Positions 12-56,962 are shown, counted from the stretch's first letter. The stretch is 57,158 nucleotides of DNA from Reclinomonas americana ATCC 50394 (GCA_048213135.1 PS015159.1:107652-164809); one strand, 5' to 3'. Made by a program: numbers and translations. The notes: a model not told the origin generated them from the sequence alone.

Positions 12-3000
12 GTGGTGTACACCAGCGCTTCAGTCATCACGCTGACGGTGGACGCGTCTGGAACCACCGCCGGCACCTACTTTATCTGCATCCGCCAGCT
101 GTCGACTCTATCGTACTACGATGTGGGCACACTAACCGTCGGTTTGTTATCTGTCACCTCCAGCGTGATAACCAACACCTGGCGCTATATGTTCTCATTT
201 TTATTTGGTTCAGCTCGCACGGATTATGTCACACCGCCGACAGTTCGCGCCGTGTCGGCGGTGGCATTGTTGGTTGGTGGCGCCAGTCTACTGGACAACT
301 CGGATGACTCGACACCCTACATTGTCTCCTCCAACTGCAACGTGGCAACACCAGTGGCGCTCACCTCGCTGAGCGTGATTCAGTGGATCGACAACACCAA
401 AGTAGTGATTGAGGGCGACATGAGTTCACTGGCCAATGGCGTGTACTCGGTGTGCGTGCGATGGTGCTCGCTCTGCTCCTACTCGTTCGTGGCGCGCTTC
501 ACTGTCGGTACGTACTGCACCGTCTTTTCGCCAGTGCTCCCACATTGTCTCACACGCCGAGCAGCCGCCGTCAGTCAGTGCCGCTTTGCCGGCGTCCCTT
601 CATCGACCAGCATTTCTCCCGGCAACATCAGTCTCGGGACGACTACCATGGTGGACCCGGGTGGCATGGCACAAGACAACCTGGGTTCGGTGTACGTGGT
701 CTCGGCGGTGTGTAAGCGATGTCGCGTGATTATCTGTCGTCTTTTCGCTTGGATTCACGGTTGTGATGATGTACGATGCAGTCTGCGCACGTCGTGCTGC
801 GAATCAAGGCAGGAGGTGAGGTGGCAGTGCGTTTTCTGACTCGCTGCTGTTGACATTACCGCTGACCGATACACGCGCGCAGGCGACATGTATGTGTACG
901 CGGGACAAGTCAACACGCCGGGACTGCAAGATGGCGCCCTGTCGCAGTCACTGCTAAGTTCGCCACGTGACATTACCTTTGACGGTGTCAACCGACGGCT
1001 CTACATTACCGACAGCGGCAACTATGTGATTCGCCGTGTCGACATGAACAACGGTTTGCTTTTGCCCCACTCTCTCTGTGTGTGTGTGTGTGTGTGTCCG
1101 TTTCTCTTTCTATCTTACTGATTTGGCATCGCCAGTGACCATTTCCACCGTTGCCGGCTTGGGTGGTGCGTCGGGCTCGGCCGACGGTGCTGCGACGACA
1201 ACTGCACGATTCTCTTCCACTCTTGGTTTGGCCTACGACTCCATCAACAATCGGGTGCTCATCAGTGACAGCTCGCGAATCCGCCTCTTTGACGTGACGG
1301 CCGGCACGGTGGCCACCATTGCCGGCAATAGTCCGTGCATTTTGTGTTGTTGTTGTTGTCGTCGTGCCACCGTGATCTCACTGAACAATAGACTCCTTTA
1401 CGTTCGCGGACGGTACCAGTACTACCTCACGCGTGAACATCCCGACGGGCATCGCCAACATGCACCCGTACTACCAGAACTCTTTTGTGTTCTCCGATCT
1501 GGTATGTGTCTTCATACTTGCGCCGCACGGTGCAATGATGGCTGACTCCGGACCCTCGCCCTACAGGGCAACCGGCGAATTCGCCTGATCAACTACTCAT
1601 CCACACTGACCTACACTCTGGCGGGAACCGGCGCCTCAGGAACTTCCAATGGTAGCGCCAGTTCGGCCACATTCAATCAGGTCTCCGGCATCGTCGCGAG
1701 CCCGGCGTTTGATGCGTTTGTTGTGGACTCGATTGGTCAATTGCGCCAGCTGACACCAGGAGGTTTGTCGCGAACCACACACTTTTGTTGTGGAGTGCGG
1801 AGCCTTGAAATTGTTAACGAGGCGGGTGCGCACAGGCGTGGTGATGACGGTTCCCACATCGCTGACGACGGCCTCTGACATTGAGCTGCGGCCCGACTCT
1901 TCGTCGTACCTGATTTCCGATTTTGCCAACACGACTGTGGAGTACGTGACGTACGGACGTTGCGTCTCACCACAACATTGCTGTTTCTCAGCATGAGGAT
2001 AGAAGGTTCTCACTTTTGATATGTGCGCAGCTGGCATCATGTACTTCTCGCCGCCGACAATCCCGGCGCTGGGCGGACAAGTTGTCACACTGTTTGGGTG
2101 TCAGCTGGCCAACGTGTCTGGCGACCCTGCTGCCTTCATCCTCTCGACAACCGTGTGCCACCCTGCCCTGCCCACCACAGTTGCTTCGGTGACCATCAGT
2201 AGTGCAGCGCCGTCGGGCGGCACCATGGTAATCACGATCAACGCATCCGGCACCGCCGGCGGCAAGTACCACTTGTGTGTGCGCTGGAATAGTCAGACGC
2301 CATATGTCGAGGTCGGTGCATTCGGCATTTTTGTGGCATCCACCTACCCGCCGTGGATGGCGCGCATCGGCCAGCAACGCTGTTGCGTCTTGCACCACAC
2401 GCTGTTCTCTTTGTATCGCTTGCTTTCCCTCACGCCATGCCACACACACACAGTGCTGGTCACTGGCTCGGGTATGTTGCACGTGGCGTCGCCGGATTCG
2501 CAGGCGGCCCTGATCGCCGCCACGTCTTGCACTGCGCCGTCCTCTTCGGCGCCGAACATGGCGGTACCTGGACTGTACTTTGCCAGTTGGTACAATGAGA
2601 ATAATGGCGACGTGCGCTTGCTCATGGACTTTTCCACGGTTGCCGTGGGCACCTACCCGGTTCGCCAAAGTATTGGGGGGCCGAGCGAACAATAAGATAA
2701 CTGTGCTCATCGTGTTTGTACTCGCAGCTGTGCATTCGCTGGAGTTCCATTGCGTACTATGTGCAGGTACTGACGCTGCAAGTGGGCTCCGAGGACACCT
2801 ATGTTGCGTGGCATTTCTTCTATCCAACACGCTTATCGTTTGCCTCACCACTTCCACTCTCCCAGGTGTGTACGTATGCTGGGTTTGGTGTGGCGGGCTC
2901 CAGTGGCGGCCGCTACAACACCTTCCAGATGCGCGATCCAGCTGGTGTGGTGCAAGACAGTACCGGCATCACCTACGTCACCGAGATGACCAACAACTGG

Positions 3001-54512: not shown

Positions 54513-56962
54513 ATGGGTCGCGGTGTGCGCGCCCTCGACTTTCTCGACACGTTGCCAGTTGCGTTGTGCCTGAGTTTGCCATCCGCTGTGTTGGCGCTCA
54601 CTCTCTCTTCCCTATCTTCTCATCTGTCTTTTTCTGTCTCCCATCTCTGTTCTTCTCTCTCTGTGTGTGTGCGTGTCTGTGACTGTACACGCCTGTAGGT
54701 CAGGAAAACCAACTGCGGATCATGGCTGAGGTGAAACCAAACCATCACTCGTTCACGCACTCATTCTTACTCACTCACTCATTGTCGCCCCCAGCCTCTT
54801 CATGTACGCCTGCATGATCGCCGTATGCGTCGCCTTGCTTATCACTGGTACGTCTCTCTCCTCACTCTCTCCTCCCCCTCTCGCTCTCTCCCTCAATCTC
54901 TTCCTCTCCTTCGCAGGCATCATTCACGGCCGATCATGGACCGACACCTTCCGCCGCCTGCCACCCCCATCGCGCACGCTTCCACTGCAAGTGCAGTGTC
55001 CGTTGGACGACCGCGGAGCACTGCCGACCCATCGATGCATCCTGTCGCAGCAGTGCTCGGGGACACCGACGGCGGTTGTCGGAAGGCCGGGCGAGTGGCT
55101 GCAGCTGGACGCATGTTTCGCTGCAGACGCGGTGCCGGAGCCCAGATTCACGGTGTGTGTGCGAGAGATGGAAGGCGCAGGATGCAGAGAACAAGGCAGT
55201 GGCGGCTGACCTTCTGACATGTGACAGCTGGTGTACTCGCTTCCGCGGTCGAGTGCCGCCTGCACCATCTCGGCGGTTGGTGTGAAGAACGGCGACTCTG
55301 TGTCTGTGGTGGCGCAAGCTAGCGCAGCAGGTGTGTACGCATGTCTTCAGCCTCGCGCACTTTCGTGCTGGCTCACACAGAGTCGTGCCATAGGTGATTG
55401 CGTGCCGCTCTTTCGGAAGGATGTCACCGAGGGAGTGGCGGCGTACAATGTGGTCGTTCCCGACAGCACCCTCTCGTCGTCCAACTTGTGCACTGCGGCT
55501 GCCACGCAAGGTATTGTGTCAAGAACACGCACTCACTTGTTGGAGCCCTGACTCGCTCTCGGGACAGCACTGACGTCTGCCCTGCTGCTGCCGGCTGCGG
55601 GGAGCATGCAATCATTGAGTTTTCGGGTGCGTTCTTCCCCTTTGCACAAGAGTCAACCAAGCATACATGCACTGACTCTGCGCGTGTACACACAGACCGG
55701 CTCCGATCGCCCTGTGCGGTCCATCAGAATACCACAAACGCTGCCGGCGTCTTCCATCATCTCCTCCTGCACACCAATCCTGCCAAACAGCGCTCGCCTC
55801 GTGTATGCCCAAGTCGATCCGTTGCGTTGTCGCGCGCCACCACGCTCCTTCGCGCACCACACTGACGCGCAGTGGACGCGAACACAGATGGTTCCCTGGC
55901 TTGCCGAATTCCACCCTCCAACCGCATGCTGTCGTCATGAGACCATCAGCGCCGCTCGGATGGGACGGCCAGGGCGCTAACGGAATTAATGTGGAGGATA
56001 CGGTGCGTTGCGATGACTGCAACACATCTGTGCCTCCAGCCGTTCTCATGTGGGCGTTGCAGAATTTCTTTGTCGATCCCACCGCCGCCGATCAAACAAC
56101 GAGCATCGTCGACTTTGAGGCGGTGTCCAATGCGTTCATTGACTGCAGTCGAGACCTCGGCCAGTCCGACTGCAGCGGTTTCATGTTTCGCAGTGTGGCA
56201 CTACGCATGTCACCGCAAGGTAGCCATGACTTTTCTCTTCTCTCCCCAACGAGCCGACGAACCAACGACTTCGTGCACCATGCAGGCATTGTCGAGCAGG
56301 AGGCACGTGTGTCGCTTGTTCTCCTGTCCTTGGCCGCGGCCGGAGCAGCACTCGTGGCGCTCTACTTTTGTTTCACCTGCATCAAGCAGTGCTGCTCTGA
56401 GGACTGGCGAGCACTGGATCAGGTGCTTCAAATCTCCAATCATCTGTCACCGTCTCGCTCTCTTGCTAACACGGTTGCAATGCAGGACGGTCATTTTATT
56501 GTCCACCACCCGATTTGGCTGTTCCGACGGCCGTCTTCCAAGATCTCCATGCCCGGCGGGTGCGTGTGCCGTTTGTCGACCACTGTTGCGAGTAACCACT
56601 CTCTCACTCTCGCTGACATGCAGATCGCCGAGCAAACAAGTGGACGACGAGGAGGCCGCCATGCCAAGAGGTTCAAGCAATCCTAATCCGACCGAGGGCG
56701 AAACCATCAACGATGATTCCCCCACTCGACGACGACACANNNNNNNNNNNNNNNNNNNNNNNNNNNNNNNNNNNNNNNNNNNNNNNNNNNNNNNNNNNNN
56801 NNNNNNNNGACAATTGAAGACGAGGACGTGGAGGAAAGCGAGGAGCAGGAGGAGGAGGAGGAGGAAGTGGATGTCGAGAGCGAGATGCAGGAGGTGGAGG
56901 AAGCCATCGAGGAGTGGGTGCAGGTGCTGGACGAGACCAGTGAGGAGATCGACCAGGAGTAG
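54513..56962 (+). CDS. Uncharacterised two-TM protein with a large Cys-containing lumenal/extracellular loop and an acidic tail
   Basis: Spliced N-terminus MGRGVRALDFLDTLP|VRKTNCGSWLS|LFMYACMIAVCVALLITG (TM1); TM2 VSLVLLSLAAAGAALVALYFCF (~56308-56375); E/D-rich end with TAG 56960-56962 after a gap, so the frame across the gap is assumed. Confidence 0.6.

What the first reader, a model, noticed from the sequence alone, without database searches (positions are those of the whole stretch)
1959..55827. Abundant one-base-offset 5' splice-site class GTTGCG(T/C): candidate second donor-recognition mode
Seen: ordinary donors here are GTNNG(T/C) (GTGCGT, GTGAGT, GTACGT, GTTTGT, GTGTGT), but about 24 introns start GTTGCGT or GTTGCGC, with +5 = C and the GCGT core moved to +4..+7. 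Donor G positions: 1959, 2382, 3234, 4584, 5146, 7407, 9535, 11550, 14667, 16280, 19501, 20899, 22202, 24596(-), 25344(-), 29451, 29842, 34411, 34823, 50712, 52250, 52833, 54558, 55821. Conserved motifs fix the cut at the GT: VAD-T-GNSLIRK (3234), LVA-D-VSNSRIR (5146), IFYL-F-VHSL (TAPT1), LEP-H-AAALGMRFY (52833). The class occurs in all three phases, on both strands and in unrelated genes, and the intron bodies are not similar to each other. Established: +5G is among the most conserved donor positions because of U1 and U6 ACAGA-box pairing, and bulged U1 pairing is known only as a minority mode. Inference: this organism uses a bulged/shifted register routinely, or has variant U1/U6 snRNAs serving this class.
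Basis: partly seen in the sequence, partly recalled or inferred. Interest (0 to 1): 0.85.

Follow-up and report, generated by a model that had tools for sequence, protein, structure and literature searches.

The report
Rigid second splice-donor class GTTGCGT
About a quarter of the short introns modelled in this unidentified protist-like genome piece begin with the exact seven letters GTTGCGT instead of the usual donor, a signal that the standard U1 RNA should not be able to read, which suggests an unusual way of marking intron starts.

Summary
The core observation holds. GTTGCGT is a real, discrete 5' splice-site class. It is the commonest donor heptamer in a donor-agnostic intron set: 12 of 69, against 0.21 expected from independent columns, and 0 of 20000 shuffles reach 12. 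Four junctions are fixed by homology or internal repeats and one by a paralogue pair.

New findings:
- There is no halo. One-mismatch variants pass 2 of 28, and other inserted bases pass 0 of 7.
- After GTT the core is always GCGT.
- Exon -1 is G in 1 of 14 class donors and 28 of 35 ordinary donors.
- Branch motif, acceptor, length and phase are the same in both classes.

The bulge reading is not supported. The heptamer aligns with ordinary G|GTGCGT shifted by one base, but a canonical U1 5' end pairs with class sites worse than with exonic decoys (-1.0 against -2.5 kcal/mol; ordinary donors -6.4).

Best guess, untested: a dedicated or altered 5'ss-reading snRNA. No genome, snRNA gene or RNA-seq was available, and the lineage is unresolved.

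The parts
1..20400 (+). Giant multi-exon gene (NHL-like repeats, IPT/TIG domain). 44 introns modelled, 12 of them starting GTTGCGT.
   Evidence: Own gene models. PF01833 TIG hit. NHL-like repeats. No relatives found for the longest exon.
1959..2030 (+). GTTGCGT intron, 72 nt, phase 1
   Evidence: Donor-agnostic model; strict audit pass.
2382..2453 (+). GTTGCGT intron, 72 nt, phase 1
2803..2865 (+).
3234..3302 (+). GTTGCGT intron, 69 nt, phase 1
   Evidence: The splice gives VADTGNSLIR. This matches the [AS]DxxNxx[IVL]R spacing of 4 of 4 uninterrupted repeats, whereas the alternative donor at 3243 inserts 3 residues.
4584..4652 (+). GTTGCGT intron, 69 nt, phase 0
5146..5216 (+). GTTGCGT intron, 71 nt, phase 2
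   Evidence: The splice gives VADVSNSRIR with the repeat spacing; donor-agnostic model.
7407..7482 (+). GTTGCGT intron, 76 nt, phase 1
   Evidence: Strict audit pass. The donor-agnostic model preferred an in-frame donor at 7353.
9535..9618 (+). GTTGCGT intron; acceptor ambiguous (84 nt to 9618, or 216 nt to 9750)
11550..11607 (+). GTTGCGT intron, 58 nt, phase 0
14667..14737 (+). GTTGCGT intron, 71 nt, phase 1
   Evidence: The second donor-agnostic pass chose an in-frame alternative, 14659.
16280..16356 (+). GTTGCGT intron, 77 nt, phase 1; no CTSAY branch motif
   Evidence: Donor-agnostic model. Fails the audit only because the branch pattern is missing.
19501..19568 (+). GTTGCGT intron, 68 nt, phase 1
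24542..24596 (-). GTTGCGT intron of the TAPT1-like gene, 55 nt, phase 0
   Evidence: Extending the exon to 24597 adds HRLGFVPIPLACL, the conserved TAPT1 block. The homologue HMM scores 56.9 bits, against 32.9 for the GTGCGT decoy at 24722.
25278..25344 (-). GTTGCGT intron of the TAPT1-like gene, 67 nt, phase 1
   Evidence: Only in-frame, stop-free GT-AG solution in the range scanned; 186 bits. The flanking exons hit PF05346 at profile positions 3-80 and 94-148.
29451..29508 (+). GTTGCGT intron in copy A of a tandemly repeated gene
   Evidence: In the alignment with copy B, the indel and divergence are confined to the interval and the donor is conserved.
34411..34488 (+). Paralogous GTTGCGT intron in copy B (19-nt insertion relative to copy A)
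43935..43941 (+). GTTGCGT that is not a productive donor. It lies inside the ordinary intron 43817-43990 of the DFRP/ZC3H15-like gene.
   Evidence: Exon map from relative P0161; sequence.
43733..46541 (+). DFRP/ZC3H15-like gene. All 4 introns have ordinary G|GT(G/A).. donors (43817, 44185, about 45628, about 46030).
   Evidence: PF16543; tblastn of P0161; sequences.
24402..26650 (-). TAPT1-like gene (PF05346). It has ordinary donors at 26010 and 25834 and class donors at 25344 and 24596.

Best explanation
GTTGCGT marks a genuine second class of GT-AG introns. These introns use the same branch site (CTCAC-type, about 11-25 nt before the 3' end), the same (G/A)CAG acceptor and the same size range as the ordinary introns, so the class differs only in how the 5' splice site is read. 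It is an all-or-none, intron-side-only seven-base signal. The exon side contributes nothing: -1 is not G.

It looks like the ordinary G|GTGCGT donor read one base out of register, but a canonical U1 5' end cannot bind it in any register. The most likely mechanism is therefore base-pairing to a dedicated or altered 5'ss-reading snRNA: a variant U1, or a U11-like RNA, whose 5' end carries the complement ACGCAAC or a near equivalent. Cleavage is still fixed at the GT by the catalytic core.

Shown: the existence, discreteness, rigidity and cut position of the class, and its mismatch to canonical U1.
For: Discreteness: 12 of 69 donor-agnostic introns against 0.21 expected, and 0 of 20000 shuffles reach 12.

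Cut position: TAPT1 junctions 25344 and 24596, repeat motif at 3234 and 5146, paralogue pair.

Rigidity, on the sense strand of the giant gene:
- GTTGCGT passes the intron audit 11 of 12.
- One-mismatch variants pass 2 of 28.
- GT+[A/C/G]+GCGT passes 0 of 7.
- GTT+other RNGY cores pass 2 of 16.
- All GT sites pass 265 of 1784.
After GTT, all 14 RNGY-type cores are GCGT, while ordinary donors use 9 core types.

Same 3' machinery: CTCAC dominates in both classes. Branch distances overlap (11-21 in 9 of 10 measured class introns, 42 in the tenth (9535); 11-30 in ordinary). GCAG/ACAG acceptors in both. Lengths do not differ (MWU p = 0.38).

Exon independence: -1G is 1 of 14 against 28 of 35, Fisher p = 3.4e-6.

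Not canonical U1: best-register duplex -0.98 kcal/mol for the class, -2.48 for 1401 decoys, -6.37 for ordinary donors. A canonical guide gives AUC 0.84 for ordinary donors and 0.26 for the class. A 12-mer guide containing ACGCAAC gives 0.79 and 0.99.

Not common descent: class-class body similarity 13.03 against class-ordinary 12.99 (p = 0.92), with no inverted repeat and no target duplication.

Precedent for two U1 genes with different 5' ends in one protist: S. specki, PMC12621601, passages read.
Against: No snRNA of this organism was seen: no genome is held and Rfam finds no snRNA in the window at either threshold. No RNA-seq was available.

The U1 5' end is almost invariant among eukaryotes (my own background knowledge). 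U6 would also have to accommodate +4..+6 = GCG.

The energy model ignores pseudouridine and U1 proteins.

The sample is 49 curated introns, 44 of them from one gene. A homology-mapped gene has 0 of 4 class donors, and one GTTGCGT (43935) is unused although a branch site and acceptor follow it.

The one-base-shift resemblance to ordinary donors, together with G enrichment at class +8 like ordinary +7, is what a shared canonical U1 would also predict.
Confidence: 0.42

Rival explanations
1. Shifted (+1) register on the ordinary U1. U1 pairs with GUUGCGU as if it were positions -1 to +6 of the ordinary G|GUGCGU donor, with one mismatch opposite C8. Proteins such as U1C or a LUC7 paralogue that favours intron-side ('right-handed') sites stabilise the weak helix. 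U6 and the catalytic core then fix the cut at the GU.
For: The heptamer equals ordinary -1..+6 at 6 of 7 positions. Exon-side columns score +1.61 bits in the shifted alignment and -0.92 in the bulge alignment. P(at most 1 G in 14) is 0.66 under the ordinary -2 frequencies and 9e-9 under the ordinary -1 frequencies. The invariant +3 T is read by A7 in this register. Shifted registers are experimentally proven in human (PMC4856993, passages). [quoted passage not shown]
Against: The predicted duplex with a canonical U1 5' end is weaker than for exonic decoys; 83% of 1401 decoys are at least as stable as the median class site. The invariant +5 C pairs with nothing, whereas ordinary donors take A or C about equally at the matching position (0.42 each). 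GTT+GAGT-type sites should bind better under this model, yet they are not used (2 of 16 pass, which is background). In human, all validated noncanonical registers together make up 1.5% of donors, not about a quarter.
Confidence: 0.25
2. A transformed minor-type system. The class is served by its own 5'ss-recognition pair (U11-like and U6atac-like RNAs with changed guide sequences), as in the expanded and transformed minor spliceosome of Physarum, but here it shares the U2-type branch signal.
For: Like U12-type donors, this donor is rigid, extended and independent of the exon. The class makes up a large share of introns, as in Physarum (abstract of bioRxiv 10.1101/2020.10.12.336362).
Against: The donor is not [G/A]TATCCTT and the branch is CTCAC, not TTCCTT[G/A]AC. 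The branch motif and its distance are indistinguishable from ordinary introns. No minor snRNA was seen.
Confidence: 0.1
3. Bulged-U register on canonical U1. G+1 and U+2 pair normally, U+3 bulges out, and GCGU pairs like +3..+6 of GUGCGU.
For: The bulge alignment gives the best score on the ordinary matrix (+7.5 bits, against -10.7 canonical). Bulge +2/+3 registers exist in human.
Against: The model predicts retained or stronger -1G, but the observed count is 1 of 14 against 28 of 35. It gives no reason for the bulged base to be T only (GT+[A/C/G]+GCGT passes 0 of 7) or for the core to be GCGT only. duplexfold allows bulges and still gives a mean of -0.98 kcal/mol. In human this register accounts for about 90 of 201,541 donors.
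Confidence: 0.07
4. Shared origin. The heptamer is the inherited end of an intron family that spread (introner-like), not a recognition mode.
For: The motif is rigid with no halo. A complete 56-nt unit (GTTGCGT, branch, CAG) is nested inside another intron at 43935. Two class introns lie 2 nt apart in homologous repeat positions, at 3234 and 5146.
Against: Bodies are no more alike than class-ordinary pairs or shuffles. ACGCAAC occurs in 0 of 13 class introns, and there is no target-site duplication. The donor is conserved between paralogues while the intron body diverged with an indel. A neutral relic would decay like the body.
Confidence: 0.07
5. Artefact: the tail of a degenerate position-independent donor matrix, or mis-modelled introns.
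For: The gene models are my own and no RNA evidence exists.
Against: Expected 0.21, observed 12, and 0 of 20000 shuffles reach 12. 12 sense to 1 antisense. Homology fixes 4 junctions.
Confidence: 0.02

Closest known systems
Shifted and bulged U1:5'ss registers in human (Roca and Krainer 2009, recalled; Tan et al. 2016, PMC4856993, passages read)
   Same: The donor keeps /GU, but its informative bases sit one position further into the intron than in the consensus. The pattern here matches a one-base shift.
   Different: In human these are rare and heterogeneous: validated noncanonical registers make up 1.5% of 201,541 donors, and bulge +2/+3 plus +3 about 90 sites. They also bind canonical U1 measurably. 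Here a single exact heptamer makes up 14 of 49 curated introns and is predicted not to bind canonical U1.
U12-type (minor) introns, including the expanded Physarum system (abstract read)
   Same: A discrete class with a rigid, extended, intron-side donor and no exon-side requirement, coexisting with degenerate major-type donors. It can reach a large share of introns.
   Different: The donor and branch sequences are unrelated to [G/A]TATCCTT and TTCCTT[G/A]AC. The branch signal is shared with ordinary introns.
Right-handed versus left-handed 5'SS classes tuned by LUC7 paralogues (bioRxiv 10.1101/2022.12.07.519539, passages read)
   Same: There are two donor subclasses, one relying on the intron side and one on the exon side of /GU. 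Here ordinary donors have -1G in 28 of 35 and the class in 1 of 14.
   Different: LH and RH are ends of a continuum on one register of canonical U1. Here the intron-side class is a single exact word, offset by one base.
Variant U1 snRNAs with altered 5' ends (diplonemid S. specki, PMC12621601, passages read; human vU1, PMC10870369, search listing only)
   Same: Precedent for more than one U1 5' end in one genome, proposed to serve divergent donors.
   Different: No matching discrete donor class was reported there, and no U1 gene could be examined here.
Strict GTGCG(T/C) donors of intron-poor picoalgae (Irimia and Roy 2008, PMC2483917; search listing and scan notes)
   Same: Near-invariant donor word containing GCGT, and short introns with a strong branch motif.
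   Different: There the rigid word is the only donor type in an intron-poor genome. Here a rigid word coexists with degenerate donors in intron-dense genes and carries an extra T.
Euglenid nonconventional introns (PMC11170887, passages read)
   Same: A second intron class in a protist with its own 5' motif. The best TAPT1 hit here is a Euglena transcript.
   Different: Those introns lack fixed GT-AG borders and have CCAGG at +3..+7 pairing with CCTG at -9..-6. Here the borders are GT-AG and there is no end pairing.

Membership tests
U2-type GT-AG spliceosomal introns | GT at the 5' end and AG at the 3' end, with removal restoring an open, homologous reading frame | tested here: met
U2-type GT-AG spliceosomal introns | YTNAY branch motif 10-40 nt upstream of the 3' splice site | tested here: met
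   CTSAY found in 10 of 14 class introns and 27 of 35 ordinary introns, with the same distances.
U2-type GT-AG spliceosomal introns | 5' splice site complementary to the U1 5' end | tested here: not met
   With the canonical 11-mer only: class -0.98 kcal/mol, decoys -2.48, AUC 0.26. The organism's own U1 is unknown.
U2-type GT-AG spliceosomal introns | Spliced junctions seen in RNA | not testable with these tools
   No sequencing run was listed.
U12-type (minor) introns | 5'SS [G/A]TATCCTT | tested here: not met
   The donor is GTTGCGT; definition taken.
U12-type (minor) introns | Branch sequence TTCCTT[G/A]AC | tested here: not met
   The branch is CTCAC, CTCAT or CTGAC, as in ordinary introns.
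U12-type (minor) introns | U11, U12, U4atac and U6atac present | not testable with these tools
   No genome is held; none in the window.
Bulged (+2/+3) U1 register donors | All other consensus pairs, including -1G:C9, retained around a single bulged base | tested here: not met
   -1G in 1 of 14; only T is tolerated as the extra base (0 of 7 for A/C/G).
Bulged (+2/+3) U1 register donors | Noncanonical register gives a stable duplex with U1 | tested here: not met
   Best-register mean -0.98 kcal/mol, weaker than the decoys.
Shifted (+1) U1 register donors | Every paired position offset by one: the donor word matches the consensus from -1, and exon -1 behaves like consensus -2 | tested here: met
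   6 of 7 positions match; exon columns +1.61 bits.
Shifted (+1) U1 register donors | Duplex with U1 strong enough to discriminate sites, proven by suppressor U1 | tested here: inconclusive
   Energetically not met with canonical U1. A suppressor test cannot be done here.
Introner or mobile intron families | Sequence similarity among copies; terminal repeats or target-site duplications | tested here: not met
Euglenid nonconventional introns | Variable borders with complementary 5' (+3..+7) and 3' (-9..-6) motifs | tested here: not met
   GT-AG borders; the reverse complement of the heptamer occurs in 0 of 13; definition taken.

The most novel reading that the evidence does not exclude
This organism runs a hybrid third mode of intron recognition. 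A dedicated snRNA reads an exact 7-nt donor (GUUGCGU) on roughly a quarter of its introns; this would be a U1 variant or U11-like RNA, possibly with a matching U6 variant. Branch site, acceptor and catalysis are shared with the major spliceosome. That would be a second 5'ss code inside a U2-type system.
Probability: 0.3. Interest if true: 0.9.

Novelty: new variant of a known kind. Interest (0 to 1): 0.68.

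Why it matters
+5G and U1 complementarity are among the most conserved rules of intron recognition. 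A genome in which the commonest donor word has +5C, no exon-side consensus and no predicted affinity for canonical U1 would show one of two things. Either 5'ss reading can be re-coded within a U2-type system (a variant snRNA), or register-shifted recognition can become a major mode instead of the 1.5% minority known in human.

It also matters in practice. Gene finders with a single donor matrix will mis-annotate about a quarter of introns in such genomes; my own model chose a GTGCGT decoy over the true GTTGCGT donor in TAPT1.

The class is simple to test once the assembly's snRNA genes and any RNA-seq are examined.

Tried and rejected
- RNA evidence: no sequencing run was listed for window:4024-14023, so read laying was never used. 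None was listed; this is not evidence on expression.
- Whole genome: none is held, so U1, U6, LUC7, U1C and METTL16 could not be looked for.
- Rfam at gathering and at E <= 1: no snRNA in the window. The weak miRNA and Hsp83-UTR hits at 25610-25820 are a (GA)n/(CT)n low-complexity intron, fold z = -0.18, with no inverted repeat.
- Lineage is unresolved:
  - The TAPT1 exon's best hit is a Euglena gracilis EukProt transcript, 71% identity over 51% of the query.
  - The DFRP exon's best named relative is Naegleria fowleri; closer hits are unnamed ENA and Logan sequences.
  - The giant exon found no relatives.
  - The atlas says only 'Eukaryota'.
- Metagenome scan for orthologous introns with the TAPT1 exon: none found.
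- Diplonemid and Euglena intron papers do not show this motif. Their supplements were not seen and might hold donor tables.
- Pfam on open segments of the 51-54.5 kb gene: no hits, so 52250 and 52833 could not be validated.
- Literature searches for the heptamer listed only primers and unrelated sequences. I read titles and abstract starts only.
- Earlier notes of this scan: none on this genome and none holding the heptamer.
- A Pfam scan of a spliced protein was not run. It was replaced by single-exon scans and in-script comparisons.
- End-to-end pairing, terminal inverted repeats and target duplications were rejected.

Full report
**Material and limits.** The window is 57,158 bases of GC-rich (about 42-61%) eukaryotic DNA with 14 N gaps. 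No whole genome is held and no sequencing run was listed. Rfam finds no RNA gene at the gathering threshold and no snRNA at E <= 1. Everything below therefore rests on the window, on homologues fetched from protein collections, and on papers.

**The observation.** All listed positions carry the motif. GTTGCGY occurs 49 times against 30.6 expected, and 0 of 100 shuffles reach 49. In the first 21 kb, which is one giant + strand gene, GTTGCGT is 12 sense to 1 antisense. GTTGAGT, GTTACGT, GTTAAGT and GTTATGT occur 2, 0, 0 and 0 times in sense.

To avoid circularity I wrote a self-trained gene finder. It uses a 3-periodic Markov coding model. Introns are constrained only by GT/GC..AG, length, a branch/acceptor score and frame, with no donor matrix.
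- Of the 69 GT introns it kept (73 predicted; 3 dropped as overlapping opposite-strand predictions, 1 with a GC donor), 12 begin with GTTGCGT. That makes it the commonest heptamer; GTGCGT has 5.
- Independent columns predict 0.21, and 0 of 20000 column shuffles reach 12 (maximum 3).
- Against the background of 20 in 3046 GT sites followed by TGCGT, P = 4e-14.
- In a stricter subset of 53, 9 are GTTGCGT against 0.15 expected.

**Where the cut is.**
- TAPT1-like gene (PF05346, minus strand). The exons flanking 25344 match profile positions 3-80 and 94-148. |GTTGCGT..CAG| is the only in-frame, stop-free GT-AG solution in the range scanned (186 bits on an HMM of five homologues).
- At 24596 my model had preferred a canonical-looking GTGCGT at 24722. 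Extending the exon to 24597 adds HRLGFVPIPLACL, the conserved TAPT1 block. That model scores 56.9 bits, the best of the 9 donor models that scored; the GTGCGT decoy scores 32.9.
- In the giant gene, 4 of 4 uninterrupted NHL-like repeats have [AS]DxxNxx[IVL]R. Cutting at 3234 and 5146 restores exactly this spacing (VADTGNSLIR, VADVSNSRIR), whereas the alternative donor at 3243 adds three residues.
- In a tandem repeat of about 3.8 kb with three copies at about 86% identity, the 29451/34411 pair shows divergence and a 19-nt indel confined to the interval between GTTGCGT and CAG. The donor is conserved.
- Caveat: a cut one base inside, with the acceptor also moved by one, gives a protein of the same length. 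Homology cannot exclude it; only the GT-AG rule does.

**Audit of all occurrences.** The test requires a branch motif, YAG, 25 open codons on each side and a positive coding score.
- 12 of 28 GTTGCGT pass.
- Control GT sites pass 277 of 4174 on the + strand and 23 of 3286 on the - strand.
- 0 of 21 GTTGCGC pass.
- The coding model is trained on the giant gene, so failures elsewhere are not refutations; 24596 fails although homology validates it.
- 2803 is an extra member.

**A counter-example.** Mapping an intronless relative (P0161, 62% identity) onto the window gives the exon map of a DFRP/ZC3H15-like gene. Its four introns all have ordinary G|GT(G/A).. donors. The GTTGCGT at 43935 lies inside the first intron (43817-43990), 56 nt before its acceptor, and is not the productive donor. 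The class is thus frequent but uneven:
- giant gene, 12 of 44;
- TAPT1, 2 class donors;
- DFRP gene, 0 of 4.

**Anatomy of the class (curated set n = 49: 14 class, 35 other).** Shared with ordinary introns:
- branch motif (CTCAC in 8 of the 10 class introns and 15 of the 27 ordinary introns that have a CTSAY motif);
- branch distance (11-21 in 9 of 10 measured class introns, 42 in the tenth (9535); 11-30 in ordinary);
- acceptor (GCAG or ACAG);
- length (55-77 apart from one ambiguous case; MWU p = 0.38);
- all three phases.

Different from ordinary introns:
- Exon -1 is G in 1 of 14 against 28 of 35 (Fisher p = 3.4e-6).
- After GTT, every RNGY-type core is GCGT (14). Ordinary donors use nine cores: GCGT 6, GAGT 5, GTGT 3, GAGC 3, AAGC 2, GCGC 2, ACGT 1, ATGT 1 and ACGC 1.

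There is no halo. On the sense strand of the giant gene:
- GTTGCGT passes the audit 11 of 12;
- one-mismatch variants, 2 of 28;
- GT+[A/C/G]+GCGT, 0 of 7;
- GTT+other RNGY, 2 of 16;
- all GT sites, 265 of 1784.

Class intron bodies are no more alike than class-ordinary pairs (13.03 against 12.99, p = 0.92; shuffled 12.1). They have no inverted repeat of the heptamer (0 of 13) and no target duplication.

**Mechanism.** On the ordinary-donor matrix the class scores:
- -10.7 bits in the canonical alignment;
- +7.5 with +3 looped out (bulge);
- +4.4 shifted by one.

The exon-side columns favour the shift (+1.61 against -0.92). P(at most 1 G in 14) is 9e-9 under ordinary -1, 0.66 under ordinary -2 and 0.053 under the exon background. 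GTTGCGT (+1..+7) equals the ordinary GGTGCGT (-1..+6) at six of seven positions. So the pattern is that of a shifted register, not a bulge.

However, with the canonical U1 5' end (the 11-mer printed in PMC4856993) and any register or bulge allowed:
- class sites average -0.98 kcal/mol, 1401 exonic GT decoys -2.48, and ordinary donors -6.37;
- 83% of decoys are at least as stable as the median class site, against 4% for the median ordinary site.

A canonical guide separates ordinary donors from decoys (AUC 0.84) but ranks class sites below them (0.26). Of the 32 hypothetical guides tried, one that is a base longer and contains ACGCAAC separates both best (0.79 and 0.99).

Canonical U1 also cannot explain the invariant +5 C, or why GTT+GAGT-type sites, which would pair better, are unused. 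I therefore rank the explanations as follows:
- a dedicated or altered 5'ss-reading snRNA, 0.42;
- a protein-assisted shifted register on canonical U1, 0.25;
- a transformed minor-type system, 0.10;
- the bulge, 0.07;
- common descent, 0.07;
- artefact, 0.02.

**Comparison with what is known.**
- In human, validated noncanonical registers are 1.5% of 201,541 donors, and bulge +2/+3 plus +3 about 90 sites (PMC4856993, Table 3).
- LUC7 paralogues tune intron-side and exon-side donor classes.
- U12-type introns have rigid donors and reached more than 20,000 copies in Physarum (abstract), but their donor and branch words differ from those here.
- Diplonemids ((G)/GTATG; two U1 5' variants in S. 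specki) and Euglena (GTGTG; nonconventional CCAGG/CCTG) do not show this motif.
- Searches for the heptamer together with splicing terms listed nothing relevant (listings only). Supplements were closed, and the organism is unidentified, so prior description in a genome paper cannot be excluded.

**Verdict.** It needs corrections: +7 is T only, and not every occurrence is a donor. The bulge interpretation is not supported. The shifted pattern is seen, but canonical U1 is insufficient. I rate it a new variant of a known kind, with interest 0.68.

Noticed in passing
window 26716-37638: Tandem repeat of a unit of about 3.8 kb in three copies at about 86% identity, interrupted by N gaps. It carries an intron-containing gene of unknown family and scores as non-coding with the giant-gene codon model.
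   Followed up: partly
window 1-20400 (+): A single gene with at least 44 introns that encodes NHL-like repeats and an IPT/TIG domain. Its longest exon (611 aa) finds no relative among 7998 scored candidates.
   Followed up: partly
window 43935-43990 (+): A complete 56-nt unit (GTTGCGT, ATCTCATGG branch, TTTGCAG) sits at the 3' end of an ordinary 174-nt intron. It could be an unused or alternative internal donor, or a nested intron.
   Followed up: partly
window 3234 and 5146 (+): Two class introns interrupt the same repeat motif (VAD|xxN) two bases apart, in phase 1 and phase 2. This could be intron sliding or parallel gain at a preferred site.
   Followed up: no
window 44185-45268 (+): A 1084-nt intron of the DFRP-like gene is filled with (GA)n and (GT)n microsatellites, in contrast with the 55-100-nt norm.
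   Followed up: no
whole window, intron 3' regions: The branch motif strongly prefers C before the branch A: CTCAC in 23 of the 37 introns with a CTSAY motif, CTGAC in 5 and CTAAC in 1. This is unusual for YTRAY-type branch sites and may be a lineage signature.
   Followed up: partly
window 34482-34488 (+): The copy-B intron (34411-34488) has ACGCAAC, the reverse complement of its own donor word, immediately before its terminal AG. This is a single case and is not seen in the other class introns.
   Followed up: partly
window 25614-25834 (-): The 221-nt TAPT1 intron gives weak Rfam miRNA and Hsp83-3'UTR hits on both strands. It is a (GA)n run followed by a (CT)n run, and its fold is no better than shuffles (z = -0.18).
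   Followed up: yes
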